Assembly: GCA_012729095.1 (NCBI GenBank)
Contig: JAAYDU010000008.1
Location: 12,252-76,251 of the forward strand
Direction of reading: 5' to 3'
DNA from: Methanobacteriota archaeon
GTDB lineage: Archaea > Thermoplasmatota > Thermoplasmata > Methanomassiliicoccales > UBA472
DNA length: 64,000 nucleotides
This document shows, one piece after another, positions 14,813-37,501 of this stretch (the stretch's first letter is position 1; every line of letters starts with the position of its first letter). Both the position numbers and the translations under genes were made by a program. The notes below the pieces were generated by a model. The model was not told the origin of the DNA, ran no database searches, and saw only the letters and a list, made by a program, of their open reading frames with translations.

Positions 14813-15082
14813 ATGACCTATCCCCGAGAGGCTTTAAACCGGATCAGGTGGGCGAAAGGCGGGCTGGAGGGGGCGATGGTGACCTACGTCCATCGCGGGG
14901 CGCCGGGCGATGTCAAGTCGGTTAGGGGCGATGATATAACGGGACTGGAAAGGTCATTCTTCACCGTGGGGAGGGGAAAGATACCCTATCACAGGGTGAT
15001 AAGGATAGAAATGGATGGGGAGGTCGTTTACCTGGCGCGACCTAATGCCGGGGCTCGTTGCAGTTCGGGCAGTTGTGCATGA
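14813..15082 (+). CDS. DUF504/UPF0248 (MJ1316-type RNA 2',3'-cyclic-phosphate end recognition domain) protein
   Basis: 89 aa. ALNRIRW.., then IPYHRVIRIEMDGEVVYLAR matches the remembered IPxHRI..g.vvw.R family pattern. Its 3' end overlaps the convergent gene. Confidence 0.55.
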   Translation: MTYPREALNRIRWAKGGLEGAMVTYVHRGAPGDVKSVRGDDITGLERSFFTVGRGKIPYHRVIRIEMDGEVVYLARPNAGARCSSGSCA

Positions 15083-15656
15083 AGGCCGGGTAGTTCACCC
15101 CGCACTTGCGGCATTTGGTCATGTCCACCTTCTTTTCCTTGTGCTCTCCATGGGCTTGCCCGGCCGGAGGGACAGGTTGTTCAGGGGCAGGCCGTGCCGG
15201 AGCTGACTGGGAAGCAGGCGCCTGCTGCGCGGGGAGCTCCTGCCCTGCCTGACACTGCTGGGCGTGGTACTGCTGGTACTGGGGTTGGAAGACCTCCTGC
15301 AGCTTGAGGAACCCGAAGAGCATCACCAGGCCGGGTATGATGTAGACCAAGAACCCTATGATGGTCCATATCAGAAGCGAATCGCTGGCCTTCTTGAAAT
15401 TACCCTGGTCCAGATTTGCGAAGACCTGGTCCTTCAGCATCAGGAGCAGAACCACGCCCAGTCCCGCGGCGATCAGGGAGTACACCCCTCCGCCAACGTT
15501 CCCGGAGAGTATGGAGATCACCCCGGCCAGCAAGGCTATGAGCGTGAATATCAGGTCGAACAGCTGCCCAATGTAGACGAGCTTGCGAGCCTCGGCCACG
15601 CTGGCCGGGAGCCATGACGGGCCGTTCTCAGGCACCAAGAAATCGTTGAGATCCAT
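15042..15656 (-). CDS. Membrane protein with a Q/P-rich linker and C-terminal zinc ribbon
   Basis: Four hydrophobic helices, then CRKCGVNYPAFMHNCPNC. Start moved to ATG 15656 (MDLNDFLVPENG), because the upstream part of track ORF 15042..15914 overlaps the divergent gene and is not protein-like. Confidence 0.6.
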   Translation of the reverse strand: MDLNDFLVPENGPSWLPASVAEARKLVYIGQLFDLIFTLIALLAGVISILSGNVGGGVYSLIAAGLGVVLLLMLKDQVFANLDQGNFKKASDSLLIWTIIGFLVYIIPGLVMLFGFLKLQEVFQPQYQQYHAQQCQAGQELPAQQAPASQSAPARPAPEQPVPPAGQAHGEHKEKKVDMTKCRKCGVNYPAFMHNCPNCNEPRH

Positions 15657-15813
15657 TACAATCCTCCAGAGGGGTCCACCCCACCGGATTTTATACATGG
15701 GATTCGCGAATTTCAATCTATCGAACCATCTCGAACGAGGGAGCCATGGCCCGGCCAACTCACAATCATTAAATACGATCCTCCATCTACGAAAGCCGTC
15801 AAGGTTGAAATGG

Positions 15814-16581
15814 ATGAAGAATGAGGATTTCAAATACCTGTACGACCGATTGAAGGAACCCTCTGATATCGATGCTCTGTCCAAGGAACTGAGCCTGGAC
15901 CGCGAGCTTCTCACCGTTATCTACACCCAGAGGACGGTCCGCGAGACCACCAAGAAGTATTACAAGGTGCAGCGGAACGGTCAGAGGATGGTCAGATCAT
16001 GGCAGAACGGGGAGACCATACTGGAGATATCCAGGCGTCTGGAGTTCCCGCCGATACTGACCGGGCTTATGATCTTTCAGGAGTCCGGGCGGTCAAAGAA
16101 GCAGTTCTGGGCCATAGTGCGCAACCCGGAGGCCATTCAAGACCATGACCTGCGAAGGCAGATAGAGGAGATAAACGCCGCCGACATCATCTACTCTCCG
16201 GAAGGCTCGGAGAAGCAGACCCTGCGGGGCAAGTGGGGCGAGAAGAACCTGCAGGACTGGCTGGACAGCCAGGGGATAACCTATCGCACCGAGGACGATC
16301 TGAGAGGCAAGTTCACCAAGACCCCCGACGCCTTGCTGGACCAACCCATAGTTGTCAACGGCTGGAAGGTCAACTGGATCGAGTCCAAGGCCACCTTTGG
16401 GGACCGGGTCGAGGTGAACAAGAACACGCGCAAGCAGCTCTCCCCCTACGTCGATCTGTTCGGCCATGGCCTGGTGGTCTACTGGTTCGGGTTCGTGGAC
16501 GAGATAACCATGGAGGACGGCATCTTCATAACCGATTCATCCCTGAGCGGCCTGAACTGTCGGCCTGCGGACCGAGCCTAG
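15814..16581 (+). CDS. TPD-motif PD-(D/E)xK nuclease-fold protein (CDIN1/C15orf41-like) with an N-terminal HTH-like region
   Basis: C-terminal KTPDALLDQPIVVNGWKVNWIESKATFGD..YVDLFGHGLVVYWFGF matches the TPD family pattern (D of TPD plus E-S-K as PD..ExK). Start placed at ATG 15814 (MKNEDFKY), because the track start 15583 lies inside the divergent gene. Confidence 0.65.
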   Translation: MKNEDFKYLYDRLKEPSDIDALSKELSLDRELLTVIYTQRTVRETTKKYYKVQRNGQRMVRSWQNGETILEISRRLEFPPILTGLMIFQESGRSKKQFWAIVRNPEAIQDHDLRRQIEEINAADIIYSPEGSEKQTLRGKWGEKNLQDWLDSQGITYRTEDDLRGKFTKTPDALLDQPIVVNGWKVNWIESKATFGDRVEVNKNTRKQLSPYVDLFGHGLVVYWFGFVDEITMEDGIFITDSSLSGLNCRPADRA

Positions 16582-16620
16582 GCTGCACACATTAAATATC
16601 TGTCACCTTTATTTTTGCTC

Positions 16621-17610
16621 ATGGATGAGACCGAGGTCATCTCCGCCAGCGATTTGGAGCGGTACGGGTATTGCCCGCTCAGCTGGTGGTTGGGACGGCG
16701 GTCCCGATCCAGCACCCCCGATCAGGAAAGGGGGGAACTGGTGCATCGCAGCAAGGCCGATGAGTACCGCCGCATACGCGGCATCGAGCAGAAGGCCTGG
16801 GACTGGGAGCGCATGGTATTCCTCTTTTCCTTGGTGGCCACCGTGCTGGCGCTTACCGGAATATCCCTGATGCGCGCCTCCAGCGGAGCGAACCTCGATT
16901 GGATACTGCCCCTGCTCAGCATCATCTGGTTCGTGGCGGTCATCGCCATGCTCTATCTCTCGGCGCAGATGGGGCAGGCCATCATCCGGGTGAGACGGCT
17001 GCAGATACTGGCCATCATTGGCCTGGTGCTTATGGTGGTGGCCATGAACATCGGCGGCCTGTTCCATGCCGATCCCCGGATCTCCATGATACTTGAGGTA
17101 CTGGCCCTGGTTTGGATGATGGCCGCCTCATTGGCATTGTACCTTTCGCTCTCGGCATCCCAGGAAGCGGGGAGGAAGAAGGATGAAGAGGGCCTGGAGG
17201 GGGAAATCCGCTACGTGGGGACTGATAGCTCGCCTTTGTTCTTTTCGGAGAGGTACGGCCTGAGCGGCAGGCCGGACTTCGTGCTGGAGATAGACGGGCA
17301 GCTCATCCCGGGGGACCTGAAGACCGGGCGAACGCCGAGGGGGCCCCTGTTCTCGCACATCATGCAGGTGGCGGCCTATTGCCTGCTCATCGCCGAGACA
17401 TCGGGAAAGCGCCCTCCGTACGGGCTTCTTCGCTACGGTGACGAGGAGCACGAGATCGAGTTCGACCCGGAGCTGGAGAAGCTGCTCCTGGGAAAGCTGG
17501 AAGAGATGCGTGGCCTCATGCGCAGTGGAGAGGTGCATCGCAACCACAACCGCCCGGGCAAGTGCGCCAAGTGCTCCCGCCGGGACTCGTGCCCGGAGAG
17601 GCTGGTGTGA
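16621..17610 (+). CDS. Cas4/RecB-family Fe-S nuclease interrupted by a four-transmembrane-helix insert
   Basis: N-terminal ISASDLERYGYCPLSWWL and GELVH. Four hydrophobic segments at about 16813-17157 (MVFLFSLVATVLALTGISLM, LDWILPLLSIIWFVAVIAMLYL, LQILAIIGLVLMVVAMNIGGLF, ISMILEVLALVWMMAASLALYL). Then GRPDFVLEIDGQLIPGDLKTG (D .. DxK), MQVAAY (QxxxY) and C-terminal CAKCSRRDSC (CxxCx5C). TTAAATAT at 16592-16599 sits about 26 nt upstream of ATG 16621. Confidence 0.7.
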   Translation: MDETEVISASDLERYGYCPLSWWLGRRSRSSTPDQERGELVHRSKADEYRRIRGIEQKAWDWERMVFLFSLVATVLALTGISLMRASSGANLDWILPLLSIIWFVAVIAMLYLSAQMGQAIIRVRRLQILAIIGLVLMVVAMNIGGLFHADPRISMILEVLALVWMMAASLALYLSLSASQEAGRKKDEEGLEGEIRYVGTDSSPLFFSERYGLSGRPDFVLEIDGQLIPGDLKTGRTPRGPLFSHIMQVAAYCLLIAETSGKRPPYGLLRYGDEEHEIEFDPELEKLLLGKLEEMRGLMRSGEVHRNHNRPGKCAKCSRRDSCPERLV

Positions 17611-19407
17611 TCACTCCACGGTGACGCTCTTGGCCAGGTTCTTCGGCTTGTCGATGGAGCAATTGCGGCGCTTGGCCACGTAATAGGACAATGCCTGCAG
17701 GGCCACCGTCACCGGTATCGGCGAGAAGACCGGCTTGACCGGCGGAACGTATACCATACGCTCGCACAGCCTGGACAGGTCAGTGTCGCCCTCCACCCCC
17801 ACGCCGAGCACGGGGCTGTCCCGGGCCGCCACCTCCGATATGTTGGCCAGCATCTTCTCGTAGGTGTGATCGCCCTTTATCGCCACGGCGATCACCGGCG
17901 TTGAGGAATCCAGCAATGCAAGCGGCCCGTGCTTCAGCTCGCCGGCGGCGAAGCCTTCCGCGTGTATGTATGATATCTCCTTGAGCTTGAGGGCGCCTTC
18001 CATCATCGTCGGATAGTTGATGTTACGGCCGATGAAGAAGCAGTGCACCGCCTTGTCCACCATCCGGCTTGCCTCCTCGATGTCGTGTATGTGGTTCAGC
18101 ACCGACTGCACCATGTTGGACGATTGCCGCAGCGAGGATAGGGCGCTGCGCATGGAATCGTGGCTCAACGTTCCGTTGCCGTACCCGACGCGTATGGCCA
18201 GCAGGTACATGGCCAGAAGCTGTGTGAGAAAGGTCTTGGTGGCTGCCACCCCAATCTCGGGACCGGCCCGGGTGTACAGCACCTCGTCCACCTCCCTGGT
18301 TATGGTGGACCCCACAATGTTCGTCACCGCCAAGGTGCGGCATCCCCGGCGCCTGGCCTCCCTGGCCGCGGCCAGGGTGTCGGCGGTCTCCCCGCTTTGG
18401 GTTATCAGTATGACCAGCGGGGCCTCGCGGGCCCCTGGTGAGTATCGATACTCCGAGGCCAGCTCCAGCGTGGTGGGCACCCCGGCGAACTCCTCCATGG
18501 CGTACTTACCGACCATGGCCGCGTGAAATGAAGAGCCGCAGGCCACTAGCTTCACCGAGGGGAAATCGATGCGTGGCAGCACCTCCCCGTTCTCTATGAG
18601 ATCGAGCGCCCCGAGCAGGGTGTTGTGGATCGCGTTCGGCCCTTCGAATATCTCTTTGAGCATGAAATGTTCGAAACCGCCCTTCTGGGCGTCCTCGGCG
18701 GACCAGGTAACCGCGGAGGGTTCCCTTTTCACCTCTATCCCCTCTTGGTCGTAGACGGCGACCCCTTTGGGAGTCAGCGACAGCGTCTCCCCGTCCATTA
18801 TGTACAGAACCTTGTTGGTATAGCTCAGCAGGGCCGTGACATCCGAGGCCAGGAAGTTCTCGTTCACTCCCAGACCGACCACCAGCGGGTTCTCCTTGCG
18901 GGCGGCGGCGATCTCCTGACTTCCCTCCAGCACAGCTGCTATGGCATACGTCCCCTCGATATCCTTCACCGTTTCGGCCAAGGCCTGACGGAGATCGCCC
19001 GAGTAGTGGGATTCCAAAAGATGCACCACCACCTCGGTGTCCGTTTCCGAGGTGAAGCGATGTCCTTCCGATTCCAAACGTTCCCGCAGGGATGTGTAGT
19101 TCTCGATTATCCCATTGTGGACAATGGCCAGCTTCCCGTCGCATGATATGAAGGGATGGGCGTTGCTATCGGACGGTCGGCCGCAGGTGGCCCAACGGGT
19201 GTGGCCTATTCCCGTTCTCCCCGTGAACTTGGGGAGCGCCCTATGCAGCACATCCAGCTCTCCCTGCTTTTTCAGGATCGTCAAACGGCCATCCTCCACC
19301 ATTGCGACGCCGGCGGAGTCATAACCGCGGTACTCCAGCCTCTTCAGACCTTCCATGAGCACCTCAGAGGCCCGACGATGGCCAGAATAACCGACTATGC
19401 CGCACAT
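17611..19407 (-). CDS. glmS: Glutamine--fructose-6-phosphate aminotransferase
   Basis: N-terminal MCGIVGY (catalytic Cys after Met), two SIS domains, and C-terminal KNLAKSVTVE. Start trimmed to ATG 19407, which overlaps the upstream stop (ATGA). Confidence 0.9.
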   Translation of the reverse strand: MCGIVGYSGHRRASEVLMEGLKRLEYRGYDSAGVAMVEDGRLTILKKQGELDVLHRALPKFTGRTGIGHTRWATCGRPSDSNAHPFISCDGKLAIVHNGIIENYTSLRERLESEGHRFTSETDTEVVVHLLESHYSGDLRQALAETVKDIEGTYAIAAVLEGSQEIAAARKENPLVVGLGVNENFLASDVTALLSYTNKVLYIMDGETLSLTPKGVAVYDQEGIEVKREPSAVTWSAEDAQKGGFEHFMLKEIFEGPNAIHNTLLGALDLIENGEVLPRIDFPSVKLVACGSSFHAAMVGKYAMEEFAGVPTTLELASEYRYSPGAREAPLVILITQSGETADTLAAAREARRRGCRTLAVTNIVGSTITREVDEVLYTRAGPEIGVAATKTFLTQLLAMYLLAIRVGYGNGTLSHDSMRSALSSLRQSSNMVQSVLNHIHDIEEASRMVDKAVHCFFIGRNINYPTMMEGALKLKEISYIHAEGFAAGELKHGPLALLDSSTPVIAVAIKGDHTYEKMLANISEVAARDSPVLGVGVEGDTDLSRLCERMVYVPPVKPVFSPIPVTVALQALSYYVAKRRNCSIDKPKNLAKSVTVE

Positions 19408-35158: not shown

Positions 35159-36238
35159 ATGTGCGGTACCACTGCCTTCTTCTACAACGATGACCTGCTC
35201 AGGTATCAGTTCGGGCCCGAACATCCCTATCAGCCCATAAGGTTCCAGCTGATCAGGGACACCCTTAGGGAGATGAGCGTGTTCGATGGCCGCCTGGAGT
35301 ATGTCGAACCACCTTCAGCCACCGAGGGGGACCTCTACGAGGTGCATGACCGCTCGCTCATCGAGAGCGTGAAGGAGATGAGCGCGGCCGGTTCCGGCTA
35401 TCTTGACATGGGCGACACGCCGGTCATGCACGGCCTTTACGAGGGAGCACTGGCCGCGGTCGGGGCCACCCTCCATGGGGCAGAGAGCATCGCCCGGGGA
35501 GAGTTCGATCATATCATGACCCCTGGCGGAGGGCTCCACCATGCCAGACGGGACAGGGCGGCGGGTTTCAGCGTGTTCAACGACCTGGCCATCGCGGCCA
35601 GGCGGTTGCAGCGCAGGTATGGTTACGAGCGCATCGCCATCGTGGACATCGACGGCCATCATGGGGACGGCACCCAATCTATATTCAACGGCGAGAAGAT
35701 ACTGACCGTCTCATTCCATCGTTTCGGGGCGGGGTTCTACCCTGGTACGGGGGCGGTCACAGATATCGGAGAGGGGGATGGAGAGGGGTATGCCGTGAAC
35801 GTCCCCCTGCCCCGCTGCACCCCTGACGAGGTGTACGTTCCCACGTACGAAAAAGTGCTCTCCGCCGCCCTGGACGCCTATCATCCGGAGATCATCATAC
35901 ATCAGTTCGGCACGGACGCCCACTACAGCGACCAGATGGTGGGCATGGGGTTGACCACCAGGACCTACGAGAAGGTGGCGGAGATAACCCATCGCCTGGC
36001 GCACGAGCATTGCGACGGTCGTTACCTGGTAACCGGAGGAGGGGGATACTCGGTGGACGCGACACGGCGCATCTGGAGCATAGCGGTTTGCACGGTCTCC
36101 GGCTCCTTCCCCCTGAACCCGGAGGGGATGCATCTCATGCGGGACTCCGGGCTGAACCGCAAGTGGAAGGTGCAGCAGGAGGAGTTCCATAAGAGACTGG
36201 ACTATCTGTACGATGAGGTCATTCCGAAGATCCGCTGA
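35159..36238 (+). CDS. Histone deacetylase-family enzyme (AcuC/acetylpolyamine amidohydrolase-like)
   Basis: GGLHHARRDRAAGFSVFND, then IVDIDGHHGDGTQ and GGGGY, the class I/II HDAC catalytic and zinc-site motifs. Confidence 0.85.
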   Translation: MCGTTAFFYNDDLLRYQFGPEHPYQPIRFQLIRDTLREMSVFDGRLEYVEPPSATEGDLYEVHDRSLIESVKEMSAAGSGYLDMGDTPVMHGLYEGALAAVGATLHGAESIARGEFDHIMTPGGGLHHARRDRAAGFSVFNDLAIAARRLQRRYGYERIAIVDIDGHHGDGTQSIFNGEKILTVSFHRFGAGFYPGTGAVTDIGEGDGEGYAVNVPLPRCTPDEVYVPTYEKVLSAALDAYHPEIIIHQFGTDAHYSDQMVGMGLTTRTYEKVAEITHRLAHEHCDGRYLVTGGGGYSVDATRRIWSIAVCTVSGSFPLNPEGMHLMRDSGLNRKWKVQQEEFHKRLDYLYDEVIPKIR

Positions 36239-36860
36239 GCTCCTTCATCCTGATTATCCAATCCAGGCATGCCCTTCCCCGTTCCGTGAGCCTGAGCATG
36301 GGCGCCCCAACCCCTTCATCCAGCCTGATAAGGTCCATCCGCTTCATTCGCCTGAGCATCGATGGAAGGGGGTCTCCCTTGCCCTTCGCTCGAACGTCCT
36401 TCAAGGGCACGGGCCATCGCTGGCATACCAGGAACTCTGCCAAATCCCCGGGGAGGGCCTCGCGCACGCCCATGGCCGCCAGCAGGGGGAACCTCCTGAT
36501 ACCTGACTCGAAACAGCAAAGCTCGGCCCCGGTGGATAGGGCGGCCAACGTGGCGGCGTCGCTCAGCAGCTTCCTTCCCCCGGTAATGTCCACCCTCACC
36601 CTCCATCCCCTGTCCTTGTGTTCCTGCACCTTGCGCTCGATGAGCATGGCGGAACCGGTAAGGTCCAACGGGTCAAGCGACAGCACCTCATGGCTTATGC
36701 CCAGCCTCCGCAGCAGGGTCATGACTGGGCCCCTCTCGTCAAGGGAGATGTCGGTCACCAGGACCATGTGATGATGGGGCAGCGAGCGCATCCCCGGCAC
36801 TATCTCCCCGACCTCGTCGCCGAGCGTGCTGACCAGCAGGTCCTTCCGTTCCGCCATCAA
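36219..36860 (-). CDS. Csa3-like CARF domain plus winged-HTH regulator (second of a tandem pair)
   Basis: N-terminal Rossmann-like LLVSTLG.., CARF loop VDITGGRKLL, and C-terminal wHTH-like LRRMKRMDLIRLDEG..LRLTERGRACL. Its ATG overlaps the upstream stop. Confidence 0.65.
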   Translation of the reverse strand: MMAERKDLLVSTLGDEVGEIVPGMRSLPHHHMVLVTDISLDERGPVMTLLRRLGISHEVLSLDPLDLTGSAMLIERKVQEHKDRGWRVRVDITGGRKLLSDAATLAALSTGAELCCFESGIRRFPLLAAMGVREALPGDLAEFLVCQRWPVPLKDVRAKGKGDPLPSMLRRMKRMDLIRLDEGVGAPMLRLTERGRACLDWIIRMKELSGSSE

Positions 36861-37501
36861 TCCAGCCCCAGCATCAGCTCCAAGGCGTCGTCGACGGTCA
36901 CCATCTTCTTCCTGCGGTCCAGGGGGTCCTCGACGAGCCGTACGATGTTATTGACCTCGAGCATCTGAATATGATGGTTGATGGTGGCCTTGTGCTTGCC
37001 CATACCCTGGGCCAGCTCCACCTGGGTCATGGGATGCTCGCGGTTCTTCCATATGAACGTCAGTATCTCCTTCTGCGCAGGGGTGAGGAGCTGGGAGTAA
37101 TCCACCCTGAGCAGGGGCAGCGGGATCTCCCGGTAGGTCTCATCATGAACGTAGACTGAATTGAGACCTTCCATGGCGCATACCAGCAGCGCGGCGGCGC
37201 TCATCATCTTGGTGCCCCCGGCGATGTTGAACACGGCGATCTCATCGCCGCCCTTTCTCAGTTTTTGCACCTGAGAGCGCATGGCCTTGGCGGCCTGGAG
37301 CAGGTCGAAGGCGTCCGGGATTGCCACCCGGTCGATGTGTACGCCCATGACAGAGCACACGCCCCTGATCTCGGCCAAGGCCTGAAGGGCGCGGGGATGG
37401 TCATTGCAGAACACCACCACCTGGTCCACTGAGGGAGTGGACTCTAGCGTCGGTAAAAGCGATTTCGCCCGAAAGCCCAGGGTGCCAAGTATTGCGACCA
37501 T
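36857..37501 (-). CDS. Csa3-like CARF domain plus winged-HTH (MarR-like) regulator (first of a tandem pair)
   Basis: MVAILGTLGFRAKSLLP, CARF loop FNIAGGTKMM, and C-terminal TPAQKEILTFIWKNREHPMTQVELAQGMGKHKATINHHIQMLEVNNIVRLVE. Confidence 0.7.
   Translation of the reverse strand: MVAILGTLGFRAKSLLPTLESTPSVDQVVVFCNDHPRALQALAEIRGVCSVMGVHIDRVAIPDAFDLLQAAKAMRSQVQKLRKGGDEIAVFNIAGGTKMMSAAALLVCAMEGLNSVYVHDETYREIPLPLLRVDYSQLLTPAQKEILTFIWKNREHPMTQVELAQGMGKHKATINHHIQMLEVNNIVRLVEDPLDRRKKMVTVDDALELMLGLD

What the first reader, a model, noticed from the sequence alone, without database searches (positions are those of the whole stretch)
15814..17610. Cas4-family Fe-S nuclease split by a four-helix membrane insert, paired with a TPD (CDIN1-like) nuclease, outside any CRISPR-cas context
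Seen directly in ORF 16621..17610. It opens with the Cas4/DUF83 signature ISASDLERYGYCPLSWWL plus GELVH. About 115 residues follow that contain four clearly hydrophobic ~20-aa segments (about 16813-17157). The nuclease core then resumes with GRPDFVLEIDGQLIPGDLKTG (motif II Asp, motif III DxK), MQVAAY (QxxxY) and a terminal CAKCSRRDSC. In Cas4/AddB-type nucleases, one N-terminal Cys plus the C-terminal CxxCx5C ligate a 4Fe-4S cluster. An even number of helices would keep both halves on the same side of the membrane, so the fold could still close. The characterised Cas4/RecB-family nucleases I know of are soluble, so a membrane-embedded version is unusual. The gene 33 bp upstream encodes a second PD-(D/E)xK protein with the TPD..WIESKATFGD pattern of the CDIN1/C15orf41 family. 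The gene upstream of that, on the opposite strand, is a membrane zinc-ribbon protein, and a DUF504 RNA-end-recognition protein lies next to it. Hypothesis (inference): a membrane-tethered DNA-end-processing or anti-invader module, or a DNA-uptake accessory, that has not been described.
Basis: partly seen in the sequence, partly recalled or inferred. Interest (0 to 1): 0.75.

Follow-up and report, generated by a model that had tools for sequence, protein, structure and literature searches.

The report
Membrane-anchored solo Cas4 nuclease family
This archaeal gene encodes a complete Cas4-type DNA-cutting enzyme with four membrane-spanning helices spliced into its middle; it belongs to a large group of membrane-tethered Cas4 relatives that I could not find described, while its pairing with the neighbouring CDIN1-like nuclease gene looks like inherited gene order rather than a functional unit.

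Summary
ORF 16621-17610 passes the curated Cas4 model (TIGR00372, 79.6 bits against a cut-off of 65). Deleting residues 61-180 in silico gives one end-to-end Cas4 match, so the hydrophobic block is a clean insertion. The insert is two homologous transmembrane hairpins, and the positive-inside rule puts the nuclease in the cytoplasm. Catalytic His/Asp/Asp-Glu/Lys/Tyr and Cys18 plus CxxCx5C are invariant in 79 species-level homologues. Relatives occur in at least 233 Thermoplasmata genomes. The wider clade carries 2, 4 or 8 helices at the same site. In bacteria the gene is split inside the hairpin into two ORFs.

No CRISPR array or cas1/cas2 lies nearby in the window or in any related locus examined. 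The upstream gene is a genuine TPD/CDIN1 homologue. It neighbours the Cas4 gene only in one lineage, where the whole housekeeping block is conserved. Distant homologues of either gene are unlinked, and each gene has its own TATA-like box. The two-nuclease module idea is therefore not supported.

Verdict: a membrane-integral solo-Cas4 clade, a new variant of a known kind. Its biological role is only inferred: DNA processing at the inner face of the membrane.

The parts
16621..17610 (+). Gene for the membrane-anchored Cas4-family nuclease (329 aa, ATG start; stop included)
   Evidence: ORF. TIGR00372, PF12705 and PF01930 matches. PADLOC Cas4 models E=6.6e-23. Homologues begin at the same Met.
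16621..16800 (+). N-terminal Cas4 module (aa 1-60): first cluster Cys (C18) and the G38/H42 metal-ligand helix
   Evidence: On its own it matches TIGR00372 positions 1-47. C18, G38 and H42 are invariant.
16801..17160 (+). Insert (aa 61-180): two homologous transmembrane hairpins
   Evidence: Removing it gives one end-to-end TIGR00372 match (model 1-179 of 180, 82.3 bits). Hairpin 1 against hairpin 2: hhalign probability 94%, E=1.2e-7.
16813..16869 (+). TM helix 1 (aa 65-83)
   Evidence: Kyte-Doolittle peak 2.31. Lies within AF2 helix 33-86.
16903..16959 (+). TM helix 2 (aa 95-113), with the near-invariant W103
   Evidence: Kyte-Doolittle peak 2.58. AF2 helix 95-116. W103 in 78 of 79 sequences.
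17005..17061 (+). TM helix 3 (aa 129-147)
   Evidence: Kyte-Doolittle peak 2.55. AF2 helix 121-147. The preceding loop is rich in K+R (mean 4.0), so it is cytoplasmic.
17089..17145 (+). TM helix 4 (aa 157-175), with L163 and A169 invariant and Leu at position 166 in 78 of 79 homologues (Met in the window protein)
   Evidence: Kyte-Doolittle peak 2.12. AF2 helix 152-190. Conservation.
17161..17607 (+). RecB-type catalytic core (D219, D232, K234, H246, Q249, Y253), the extra Cys254, the HRNH motif (306-309) and the C-terminal cluster Cys residues
   Evidence: AF2 pLDDT 75-94 for aa 190-300. Foldseek top hits are Cas4, MGME1, Dna2 and ACE1. Invariance.
17563..17592 (+). C315-x2-C318-x5-C324, the three C-terminal Fe-S ligands of Cas4/AddB-type nucleases
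   Evidence: Read directly from the sequence. Invariant in 79 of 79. Aligns to the CxxCx5C of 8D3L Cas4.
16592..16599 (+). TATA-like box TTAAATAT, 22-29 nt upstream of the Cas4TM ATG: a probable own promoter with little or no leader
   Evidence: Sequence. The box is retained in the closest relatives L001-L009, with degenerate A/T-rich variants in L010-L012, while the flanks diverge. Promoter function is inferred.
15814..16581 (+). Neighbouring TPD / CDIN1 (C15orf41) family PD-(D/E)xK nuclease gene (255 aa). Adjacent by lineage-specific synteny, not shown to be a partner.
   Evidence: PF14811 E=3e-43. Invariant E143/E160/D172/E190/K192. AF2 pLDDT 95. Adjacency statistics.
15769..15776 (+). TATA-like box TTAAATAC upstream of the TPD gene
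   Evidence: Sequence. Function is inferred.
17611..19407 (-). GlmS (glutamine-fructose-6-phosphate aminotransferase), convergent, with its stop codon abutting the Cas4TM stop. A housekeeping neighbour, found next to Cas4TM in slightly more loci (41) than TPD (40).
   Evidence: ORF. tblastn found it in 41 of 80 loci, including the TPD-less L047 and L063. A SIS domain is present in the window.
15042..15656 (-). Membrane protein with a C-terminal CxxC...CxxC tail, divergent from TPD. Context only.
   Evidence: ORF. Weak Zn_ribbon_LapB match, E=0.013. Present in 37 of 80 loci, only within the same synteny block.
14813..15082 (+). DUF504 / MJ1316 RNA cyclic-end recognition domain protein. Context only.
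   Evidence: PF04457 E=9e-10. Present in 35 of 80 loci, only within the same synteny block.

Best explanation
ORF 16621-17610 encodes a complete, probably active Cas4-family nuclease (RecB-type PD-(D/E)xK core with a 4Fe-4S cluster). Its fold is interrupted by two tandemly duplicated transmembrane hairpins, placed between the helix carrying the metal-ligand His and the first core strand.

The four helices anchor the enzyme in the cytoplasmic membrane, and both nuclease halves face the cytoplasm, where they close into one domain.

The gene is a vertically inherited solo-Cas4 of Thermoplasmata (Methanomassiliicoccales and relatives). It is probably transcribed from its own promoter among housekeeping genes. 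It is not part of CRISPR-cas and is not functionally tied to the neighbouring TPD/CDIN1-like gene.

Shown here: domain identity, a clean insertion, hairpin duplication, residue invariance, distribution and contexts.

Inferred: Fe-S binding, metal-dependent DNA cleavage of the kind measured for soluble Cas4 and solo-Cas4, cytoplasmic orientation, and the biological role.

My best guess at the role is confinement of a DNA-end or nicking nuclease to the inner face of the membrane. There it would process DNA that is entering the cell or is attached to the membrane (surveillance of incoming linear DNA, or repair), and bulk chromosomal DNA would be spared.
For: Domain identity:
- TIGR00372 79.6 bits against a cut-off of 65; PF12705 and PF01930 also match.
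- Deleting aa 61-180 gives a single match over model positions 1-179 of 180 at 82.3 bits.
- Foldseek on the AF2 model returns Cas4 (8D3L, 7MI4, 4IC1), MGME1, Dna2 and ACE1 at E=2e-5 to 1e-3, probability 1.0.

Residue conservation:
- H42, D219, K234, Y253, C315, C318 and C324 are invariant in 79 of 79 sequences. C18 is in 78 of 79 (the other is an alignment gap). Position 232 is D or E in all.

Membrane insert and topology:
- Four hydrophobic peaks and four long predicted helices.
- Mean K+R is 4.0 in loop 2-3, against 0.7 and 0.2 in loops 1-2 and 3-4.
- The two hairpins are homologous, E=1.2e-7.

The same insertion site elsewhere:
- It carries 2, 4 or 8 helices in relatives; 138 of the 149 best cluster representatives analysed have at least one predicted TM helix.
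- In 4 of 4 bacterial loci examined, the gene is split between the two helices into two ORFs.

Distribution and context:
- 233 species-level genomes have a relative; the 80 retained are all annotated as Thermoplasmata, Methanomassiliicoccales or unresolved Methanobacteriota/Thermoplasmatota.
- No viral relatives.
- No CRISPR array was found in the window and no cas gene among the genes examined around any locus.
- A TATA-like box is retained upstream in the closest relatives.
- Solo-cas4 genes are reported to evolve mainly vertically (PMC5704561).
- A soluble solo-Cas4 of Methanosarcina mazei binds a 4Fe-4S cluster and cleaves DNA (PMC12501428).
Against: - The AF2 model is only moderate overall (pLDDT 70). 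It falls below 50 in the TM loops and over the last 21 residues, which hold the three C-terminal Cys.
- I had no access to model coordinates, so clustering of the four Cys was not measured.
- TM helices and topology rest on hydropathy, AF2 secondary structure and the positive-inside rule, not on a dedicated predictor.
- A fifth near-invariant Cys (C254) leaves open which four residues ligate the cluster.
- Nothing in the sequence says what the substrate is.
- Neighbours give only scattered hints: an LTD-PLD-PKD surface protein in 10 loci and XPB-Bax1 in one.
- Promoter boxes are consensus-level inference, and co-transcription with TPD across the 39-nt spacer is not excluded.
- The literature search covers open-access papers only. 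arCOG and InterPro architecture tables could not be consulted.
Confidence: 0.7

Rival explanations
1. TPD and Cas4TM, possibly with the zinc-ribbon membrane protein and DUF504, form one membrane-tethered two-nuclease module for defence or DNA uptake.
For: - The two genes are on the same strand with a 39-nt spacer.
- TPD lies directly upstream in 40 of 80 loci, including a few at 43-44% identity (L049, L052, L062).
- Both proteins keep intact PD-(D/E)xK catalytic residues.
Against: - In every one of those 40 loci the surrounding housekeeping block is conserved too. GlmS is found next to Cas4TM in slightly more loci (41 against 40).
- The other 40 Cas4TM loci lack TPD and have different neighbours.
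- TPD homologues at 47-50% identity sit next to eIF-1A/RIO1/KH, ThyA or prenyltransferase genes, with no Cas4.
- Separate TATA-like boxes precede each gene.
- TPD has no PADLOC hit.
- Human CDIN1 is an RNA nuclease with no DNase activity (PMC13463051).
Confidence: 0.1
2. A bona fide CRISPR adaptation Cas4 acting in trans. It would trim prespacers for a Cas1-Cas2 encoded elsewhere in the genome, with the membrane anchor placing adaptation at the site of DNA entry.
For: - It passes the TIGR00372 'equivalog' cut-off and PADLOC Cas4 models.
- Two stand-alone CARF3/Csa3-like genes lie 19 kb away.
- Many archaea carry both CAS-Cas4 and solo-Cas4 (PMC5704561).
Against: - The window has no CRISPR array, and no cas1, cas2 or effector model appeared in the PADLOC output for the window ORFs.
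- No cas gene appeared among the genes examined in the ~90 related loci: the conserved neighbour clusters and representative maps of the 80 genome loci and every called gene in the 11 metagenome or genome contigs.
- The TM-bearing clade scores closer to itself than to canonical Cas4.
- The gene follows lineage synteny, as a housekeeping gene does.
Confidence: 0.07
3. A membrane-stress-sensing defence effector of the abortive-infection type. The hairpins would sense phage- or conjugation-induced membrane changes and switch on the nuclease.
For: - Some bacterial split versions sit near mobile or defence-type genes: Polbeta/HepT toxin-antitoxin in L089; Sipho_Gp157 and Mom in L090; FRG and many small ORFs in L091.
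- Weak PADLOC hits to DruK, E=2e-8.
- Membrane-embedded sensors are known in other defence systems, for example Kiwa (PMC11785009, listed).
Against: - The archaeal gene is vertically inherited among GlmS, rpl15e, MetRS and MtnA-type genes, not in variable islands.
- There are no viral or MGE copies.
- The TM segments are weakly constrained. Only W103, L163, position 166 (Leu) and A169 are near-invariant, and N143 and E159 vary. This fits an anchor better than a sensor.
Confidence: 0.12
4. An artefact. The hydrophobic block would be a mis-assembly, a fused pair of genes or a decaying pseudogene.
For: None beyond the unusual architecture.
Against: - The reading frame is intact.
- The same architecture at about 325-330 aa appears in hundreds of independent assemblies.
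- Functional residues on both sides of the insert are invariant.
- The insertion is clean with respect to the Cas4 profile.
Confidence: 0.01

Closest known systems
Cas4 (SSO0001 / PDB 4IC1; Pcal_0546 / 4R5Q; type I-C Cas4 / 8D3L; Cas4-Cas1 fusion / 7MI4)
   Same: - The same domain from end to end (TIGR00372 positions 1-179 once the insert is removed).
- The same catalytic His/Asp/Glu-x-Lys/Gln-x3-Tyr residues.
- The same arrangement of one N-terminal Cys plus CxxCx5C.
- The same fold by Foldseek.
   Different: - A 120-residue, four-helix membrane insert lies between the His helix and the core.
- No cas1, cas2 or CRISPR nearby.
- Clade-specific HRNH motif and an extra Cys after QxxxY.
- Sequence identity to solved Cas4 structures is only 15-23%.
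Solo-Cas4 (Hudaiberdiev et al. 2017, PMC5704561; M. mazei Solo-Cas4, PMC12501428)
   Same: - A stand-alone Cas4-family gene outside CRISPR-cas, vertically inherited and common in archaea.
- By analogy, expected to bind a 4Fe-4S cluster and to cut DNA with Mn2+ or Mg2+.
   Different: - The characterised solo-Cas4 was purified as a soluble high oligomer.
- The phylogenomics paper's only use of 'membrane' is a gene-name abbreviation and it never uses 'helices' or 'insertion'. The two solo-Cas4 papers have no occurrence of 'transmembrane'.
Other Cas4-fold nucleases: AddB/AdnAB nuclease domains, Dna2, MGME1, Exo5, and Argonaute-associated ACE1
   Same: The same RecB-type fold. In AddB, Dna2 and Exo5 an Fe-S cluster staples the N- and C-terminal parts of the domain (established knowledge). 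These are structural neighbours.
   Different: They are soluble, or sit within soluble helicase-nuclease machines. None has a transmembrane insertion.
Membrane-bound nucleases of DNA uptake (EndA, NucA; ComEC-associated machinery)
   Same: A nuclease held at the membrane. This is a possible functional analogy for processing DNA that crosses the membrane.
   Different: - Unrelated folds, and their active sites face outward. Here the active site is predicted to be cytoplasmic.
- The analogy is an inference only.
CDIN1 / C15orf41 (Pfam TPD, PF14811), for the upstream gene
   Same: - A strong profile match with conserved catalytic Glu/Asp/Glu-x-Lys.
- Euryarchaeal orthologues have been noted before (PMC7092493).
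- NCBI already names these proteins 'C15orf41 family protein'.
   Different: - I did not search for an archaeal Codanin-1 counterpart, and none is recorded in the papers read.
- Human CDIN1 acts on RNA; the archaeal substrate is unknown.
- No solved structure was found by sequence, and only weak PD-(D/E)xK fold matches turned up.

Membership tests
Cas4 family (TIGR00372 / PF01930 / PF12705 RecB-type Fe-S nucleases) | Profile match above the curated threshold over the whole domain | tested here: met
   TIGR00372 79.6 bits (cut-off 65) in two stretches. With aa 61-180 removed, 82.3 bits in one stretch over model positions 1-179 of 180. PF12705 61 bits and PF01930 33.6 bits.
Cas4 family | RecB motifs: Asp (II), Asp/Glu-x-Lys (III), Gln-x3-Tyr, and the upstream metal-ligand His | tested here: met
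   H42, D219, K234 and Y253 in 79 of 79 sequences. Position 232 is D (25) or E (54). Q249 in 73 of 79, with R in 6.
Cas4 family | One N-terminal Cys plus a C-terminal CxxCx5C (4Fe-4S ligands) | tested here: met
   C18 in 78 of 79. C315, C318 and C324 in 79 of 79. This is sequence-level evidence only.
Cas4 family | RecB/Cas4 three-dimensional fold formed by both halves | tested here: met
   Foldseek top hits are Cas4 8D3L/8D3Q, MGME1, Dna2, 7MI4 and 4IC1, at probability 1.0 with 139-175 aligned columns for most of them (about 120-125 for MGME1). Caveats: model pLDDT is 70 and the C-terminal 21 residues are below 50.
Cas4 family | Bound 4Fe-4S cluster and metal-dependent DNA nuclease activity | not testable with these tools
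   Requires purified protein (UV-vis at 420 nm, EPR, nuclease assays).
CRISPR-associated Cas4 (adaptation module) | Encoded with cas1/cas2 or next to a CRISPR array | tested here: not met
   No array in 64 kb. No cas1, cas2 or effector model appeared in the PADLOC output for 50 window ORFs; that output shows only the first 25 of 96 matched families, and 20 ORFs flanking the gene were also scanned individually. No cas gene among the genes examined in related loci.
Solo-Cas4 (sensu Hudaiberdiev 2017) | A Cas4-family gene outside CRISPR-cas loci and outside mobile elements, mainly vertically inherited | tested here: met
   Housekeeping synteny conserved across lineages. No relatives in viral contigs. 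Definition taken from PMC5704561.
TPD / CDIN1 (PF14811), upstream gene | Profile match and conserved PD-(D/E)xK catalytic residues | tested here: met
   147.4 bits against a cut-off of 27. E143, E160, D172, E190 and K192 invariant in 16 sequences. They correspond by motif to human E166, D196, E214 and K216.
TPD / CDIN1 (PF14811), upstream gene | RNA exonuclease activity; complex with Codanin-1 | not testable with these tools
   The activity is known only for the human protein (PMC13463051). An archaeal Codanin-1 counterpart was not searched for.
Conserved two-gene TPD-Cas4 module | Adjacency kept beyond what shared synteny explains, from both genes' point of view | tested here: not met
   40 of 80 loci, only within the fully conserved block. 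Three of three distant TPD loci lack Cas4. 40 of 40 distant Cas4TM loci lack TPD.
Known anti-phage defence systems (PADLOC-DB v2) | Match to a system-specific protein model together with the system's partner genes | tested here: not met
   Only generic Cas4 models and weak DruK hits for Cas4TM. None for TPD or the immediate neighbours.
DUF2101 (PF09874, predicted archaeal membrane protein), as the source of the insert | Consistent profile match of the TM insert across family members | tested here: not met
   Only 1 of 18 members hits it, at E=1.2e-5. Other members hit assorted unrelated membrane families (MFS_1, Yip1, DUF5883 and others), which points to hydrophobic composition rather than homology.

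The most novel reading that the evidence does not exclude
The transmembrane hairpin is more than an anchor. It would be a conserved membrane-embedded assembly or coupling device that joins the two halves of a Cas4 nuclease; in bacteria these halves are literally separate polypeptides. It would tie nuclease activity to DNA crossing or touching the membrane. The clade would then be a dedicated entry-surveillance or DNA-uptake end-processing nuclease: a membrane-localised functional counterpart of RecBCD/AddAB for Thermoplasmata (a class that includes wall-less archaea) and for several bacterial phyla.
Probability: 0.2. Interest if true: 0.8.

Novelty: new variant of a known kind. Interest (0 to 1): 0.58.

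Why it matters
- **Gap in Cas4 biology.** Cas4 is well studied as a CRISPR adaptation nuclease, yet the role of the abundant stand-alone Cas4 genes of archaea remains open. A large, vertically inherited clade whose nuclease domain is built into the membrane points to a place of action, the inner membrane face, and so to testable substrates.
- **A natural split-protein experiment.** The 2-, 4- and 8-helix forms and the split two-gene bacterial form suggest that an Fe-S nuclease fold can be closed across a membrane-embedded hairpin. This is of interest for protein evolution and engineering.
- **Annotation.** Current pipelines label these proteins 'CRISPR-associated protein Cas4', which is misleading for CRISPR surveys.
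- **TPD/CDIN1.** Showing that the TPD pairing is inherited gene order stops a spurious 'two-nuclease system' from entering catalogues. In other lineages the archaeal CDIN1 homologue sits next to eIF-1A/RIO1/KH genes, which fits the newly reported RNA-nuclease activity of human CDIN1.

Tried and rejected
1. **DUF2101 as the origin of the insert.** One homologue is named 'DUF2101 family protein' and P0107 passes PF09874. However, only 1 of 18 members hits it, and other members hit unrelated membrane families. I rejected it as compositional similarity.
2. **Invariant intramembrane Asn143/Glu159 as a functional site.** They looked invariant among 18 sequences but vary among 79: N to F/Y/L and E to Q/G/L.
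3. **Sigma-70 promoter and terminator scan.** Not informative for an archaeon.
4. **Viral contigs.** No relatives.
5. **Solved structures for TPD.** None by sequence, and only weak PD-(D/E)xK fold matches with E of at least 0.05. The afdb50 library was unavailable, so a direct fold comparison with human CDIN1 could not be run.
6. **Paralogue search among window ORFs.** No paralogous pairs found.
7. **Literature searches.** Six searches for a membrane or transmembrane Cas4 found nothing relevant.
8. **A second AF2 run for Cas4TM.** Not done, because model coordinates are not returned and Cys-Cys distances could not have been measured anyway.


Full report
**1. The observation**

Pfam gives PF12705 (E=2e-16) and PF01930/Cas4 (E=5e-8). 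NCBIfam TIGR00372 'cas4' scores 79.6 bits against a curated cut-off of 65, in two separate stretches. PADLOC Cas4 models reach E=6.6e-23.

A 19-residue Kyte-Doolittle scan finds four peaks (2.1-2.6) at aa 65-83, 95-113, 129-147 and 157-175. AlphaFold2 with an 18-sequence alignment predicts four long helices there and a confident core (pLDDT 75-94 for aa 190-300). Overall pLDDT is 70, and the loops between the helices and the last 21 residues are poorly defined.

Foldseek against the PDB returns Cas4 (8D3L/8D3Q, 7MI4, 4IC1, 4R5Q), MGME1, Dna2 and Argonaute-associated ACE1 as the top hits. E-values run from 2e-5 to 3.5e-3, all at probability 1.0.

**2. A clean insertion into a whole Cas4 domain**

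I removed residues 61-180 in silico and rescanned. TIGR00372 then matched in one stretch, from model position 1 to 179 of 180, at 82.3 bits. Residues 1-64 alone match model positions 1-47. The hydrophobic block therefore interrupts an otherwise complete Cas4 domain, between the helix carrying the metal-ligand His (H42) and the first core strand.

**3. Nature of the insert**

The two halves of the insert are homologous to each other: hhalign on the family alignment gives probability 94% and E=1.2e-7. The four helices are thus a duplicated hairpin.

Mean K+R counts across 18 homologues are 4.0 in the loop between helices 2 and 3, 4.1 before helix 1 and 5.0 after helix 4. The loops between helices 1-2 and 3-4 have only 0.7 and 0.2. 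By the positive-inside rule, both nuclease halves face the cytoplasm. This is an inference.

Within the membrane segments only W103, L163, position 166 (Leu in 78 of 79; Met in the window protein) and A169 are near-invariant among 79 sequences. N143 and E159 looked invariant in the smaller alignment but vary in the larger one. That pattern suits an anchor or packing element better than a channel or catalytic site.

**4. Conservation**

H42, D219, K234, H246, Y253, C315, C318 and C324 are identical in 79 of 79 species-level homologues of 39-100% identity. C18 is present in 78 of 79, the remaining sequence having an alignment gap. Position 232 is always D or E, and Q249 is present in 73 of 79.

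Two clade-specific features are unexplained. One is a fifth Cys directly after the QxxxY Tyr (C254, 77 of 79). The other is an HRNH motif (306-309) just before the CxxC; H306, R307 and H309 are in 79 of 79 and N308 in 77 of 79.

**5. Distribution**

The word-indexed search found 1035 clusters at 90% identity. The best 120 are nearly all full length, about 325-330 aa, apart from a few truncated sequences from short contigs. They are named 'Cas4' or 'PD-(D/E)XK nuclease' from Methanomassiliicoccales MAGs.

A scan of one genome per GTDB species found relatives in 233 genomes. The 80 retained are all annotated as Methanomassiliicoccales, Thermoplasmata or unresolved Thermoplasmatota/Methanobacteriota MAGs. 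No relative exists in 2.9 million viral contigs.

A profile search of 1.84 billion representatives gave 114 hits below 1e-30. Of the 149 best that I could analyse, 138 have at least one predicted TM helix. Complete proteins fall into classes:
- 2 helices, about 265-285 aa. One example is from the cultured Methermicoccus shengliensis.
- 4 helices, about 325 aa.
- 8 helices, about 500-600 aa, in which the profile matches several times in the same protein.

**6. Split form (found in passing)**

About 45 representatives are roughly 175-aa proteins. Each has a single N-terminal TM helix, the core and the CxxCx5C, but lacks the N-terminal Cys/His module. Some come from bacteria (Anaerolineae, Pyrinomonadaceae).

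In all four loci I inspected, the gene directly upstream on the same strand encodes an 83-121-aa protein. That gene either overlaps the core gene by 1-10 nt or ends 10-26 nt before it. Its product carries the 'ASE[VI]..Y.YC.R.W.L ... H' module followed by one C-terminal TM helix. The reading frames differ and each ORF has proper start and stop codons, so these are real two-gene versions split inside the hairpin. This supports the view that the hairpin is an ancient, integral feature and that the two halves reassemble.

**7. Genomic context**

*The window.* No tandem or spaced repeats were found, and Rfam finds only two tRNAs. PADLOC on 50 window ORFs gave Cas4 models for this ORF only. It also gave hits for two tandem stand-alone CARF3/Csa3-like genes at 36222-37501, 19 kb away. 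No cas1, cas2 or effector model appeared in that output. It lists only the first 25 of 96 matched families, so 20 ORFs flanking the gene on both sides were also scanned individually.

The neighbours of the gene are:
- adenine deaminase;
- DUF504/MJ1316;
- a membrane protein with a CxxC...CxxC tail;
- TPD;
- GlmS, convergent, with its stop codon abutting the Cas4TM stop;
- a nucleotidyl transferase;
- a KaiC-like ATPase.

*Related loci.*
- The 8-helix forms lie next to rpl15e in two lineages.
- One 2-helix form lies beside pyruvate:ferredoxin oxidoreductase genes.
- The Methermicoccus 2-helix form lies about 900 nt upstream of XPB plus DUF790, which I take to be Bax1-like.
- The bacterial split forms have varied, partly mobile-looking neighbours.
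- None of the genes examined in these loci is a cas gene.

**8. The TPD neighbour**

ORF 15814-16581 is an unambiguous PF14811 member (E=3e-43). It keeps invariant E143, E160, D172 and E190-x-K192, and its AF2 model is very confident (pLDDT 95). NCBI already names such proteins 'C15orf41 family protein'. Euryarchaeal orthologues of C15orf41 were noted in 2020 (PMC7092493).

Several results argue against a functional pairing with Cas4TM:
- TPD is directly upstream in 40 of 80 loci, but always within the same conserved block. GlmS is found in slightly more loci (41) than TPD (40).
- The other 40 loci have different neighbours: two small membrane proteins convergent downstream (21 loci), an MtnA-like gene (19), and an LTD + 2xPLD + PKD surface protein abutting upstream (10).
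- Seen from the TPD side, three homologues at 47-50% identity to the window protein sit next to eIF-1A/RIO1/KH, ThyA or prenyltransferase genes, without Cas4.
- A TTAAATAT box lies 22-29 nt upstream of the Cas4TM ATG. It is retained in the closest relatives, with degenerate variants in more distant ones, while the flanking sequence drifts. A similar box precedes TPD. This suggests separate promoters, by inference.
- Human CDIN1 shows no DNase activity and cleaves RNA in duplexes (PMC13463051).

**9. Mechanism**

*Shown:* a complete Cas4 domain with intact catalytic and cluster residues, anchored by a duplicated TM hairpin; vertical inheritance; no CRISPR or MGE linkage.

*From established knowledge of the family:* Cas4, AddB, Dna2 and Exo5 nucleases use one N-terminal and three C-terminal Cys to hold a 4Fe-4S cluster that staples the domain. 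They cleave DNA with Mn2+ or Mg2+. A soluble archaeal solo-Cas4 does both (PMC12501428).

*Inferred:* the enzyme works on the cytoplasmic face of the membrane, on DNA that is entering the cell or is membrane-attached. This would be either surveillance of incoming linear DNA or a repair/processing task. I rank this above three alternatives: a membrane-sensing abortive-infection effector (the archaeal gene behaves as a housekeeping gene), a trans-acting CRISPR adaptation factor (no cas linkage anywhere), and the TPD module.

**10. Comparison with the known, and novelty**

By every sequence and fold criterion I could test, this is a member of the Cas4 family, and by context it is a solo-Cas4. It fails the CRISPR-association criterion.

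What differs from all characterised members is the membrane insertion, its modular expansion to 2, 4 or 8 helices, and the split form. The Cas4 phylogenomics paper uses 'membrane' only once, in a gene-name abbreviation. The solo-Cas4 papers have no occurrence of 'transmembrane'. Six full-text searches found no description.

There are limits to that claim. Only open-access papers are covered, and arCOG and InterPro could not be checked. Databases already hold hundreds of these sequences under generic Cas4 names.

I rate it a new variant of a known kind, of moderate to high interest. The architecture claim is solid, the module claim is rejected, and the function is open.

Noticed in passing
L088 7759-8010 and 8001-8576; L089 3702-3974 and 4001-4537; L090 3625-3990 and 4001-4516; L091 3735-4001 and 4001-4543: Bacterial relatives (Pyrinomonadaceae, Anaerolineae and others) encode the membrane Cas4 as two adjacent ORFs split inside the TM hairpin. 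An 83-121-aa protein carries the N-terminal Cys/His module and one TM helix. A protein of about 175 aa carries one TM helix, the RecB core and CxxCx5C. About 45 of the 150 best cluster representatives are of the second kind.
   Followed up: partly
Proteins P0124, P0128, P0130, P0136, P0177 (8 TM); P0144, P0155, P0165, P0168, P0283 (2 TM); loci L084, L085, L092, L093: The same insertion site carries 2, 4 or 8 predicted helices in different archaeal lineages, always an even number in complete proteins. Both 8-helix loci examined are adjacent to ribosomal protein L15e. The Methermicoccus 2-helix gene lies about 900 nt upstream of XPB helicase plus DUF790, which I take to be Bax1-like.
   Followed up: partly
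window 36222-36860 (-) and 36860-37501 (-): Two tandem stand-alone CARF3/Csa3-like genes (PADLOC E=2.7e-18 and 5.6e-88) with no CRISPR array in the 64-kb window and no cas gene detected in the PADLOC scans.
   Followed up: no
L077 3339-5996; also L043, L051, L055, L058, L069, L071, L075, L076, L079: In 10 Thermoplasmata loci, a predicted surface protein of up to about 900 aa abuts or overlaps the start of the Cas4TM gene on the same strand. The one scanned, from L077 (885 aa), has Lamin-Tail, two PLD-like and PKD domains. This may hint at extracellular DNA or lipid handling.
   Followed up: partly
window 17380-17382 (Cys254) and 17536-17547 (His306-Arg-Asn-His309): Clade-specific conserved residues that are not part of the canonical Cas4 signature. 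One is a fifth Cys right after the QxxxY Tyr (77 of 79), also present in the split bacterial forms that lack the N-terminal Cys on the same chain. The other is an HRNH motif before the CxxC. Their role is unexplained; they may be an alternative cluster ligand or a second metal site.
   Followed up: no
L082 5001-7541; L083 5001-9324: In other Methanomassiliicoccales-related lineages the archaeal CDIN1/TPD homologue sits just upstream of eIF-1A, RIO1 kinase and a KH-domain (PNO1/KRR1-like) gene. This translation and ribosome-biogenesis context fits the recently reported RNA-nuclease activity of human CDIN1.
   Followed up: no
window 17608-17613: The Cas4TM stop codon (ends at 17610) and the convergent GlmS stop codon (begins at 17611 on the other strand) abut, with no intergenic base. 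No terminator-like structure was found between them.
   Followed up: no
window 15814-16581 (model m18b456d07031): The archaeal TPD protein folds with very high confidence (pLDDT 95, pTM 0.88) into a helical N-terminal domain plus a PD-(D/E)xK core. It has no close solved structure (best Foldseek E=0.05). This would make it a convenient small model for CDIN1.
   Followed up: partly
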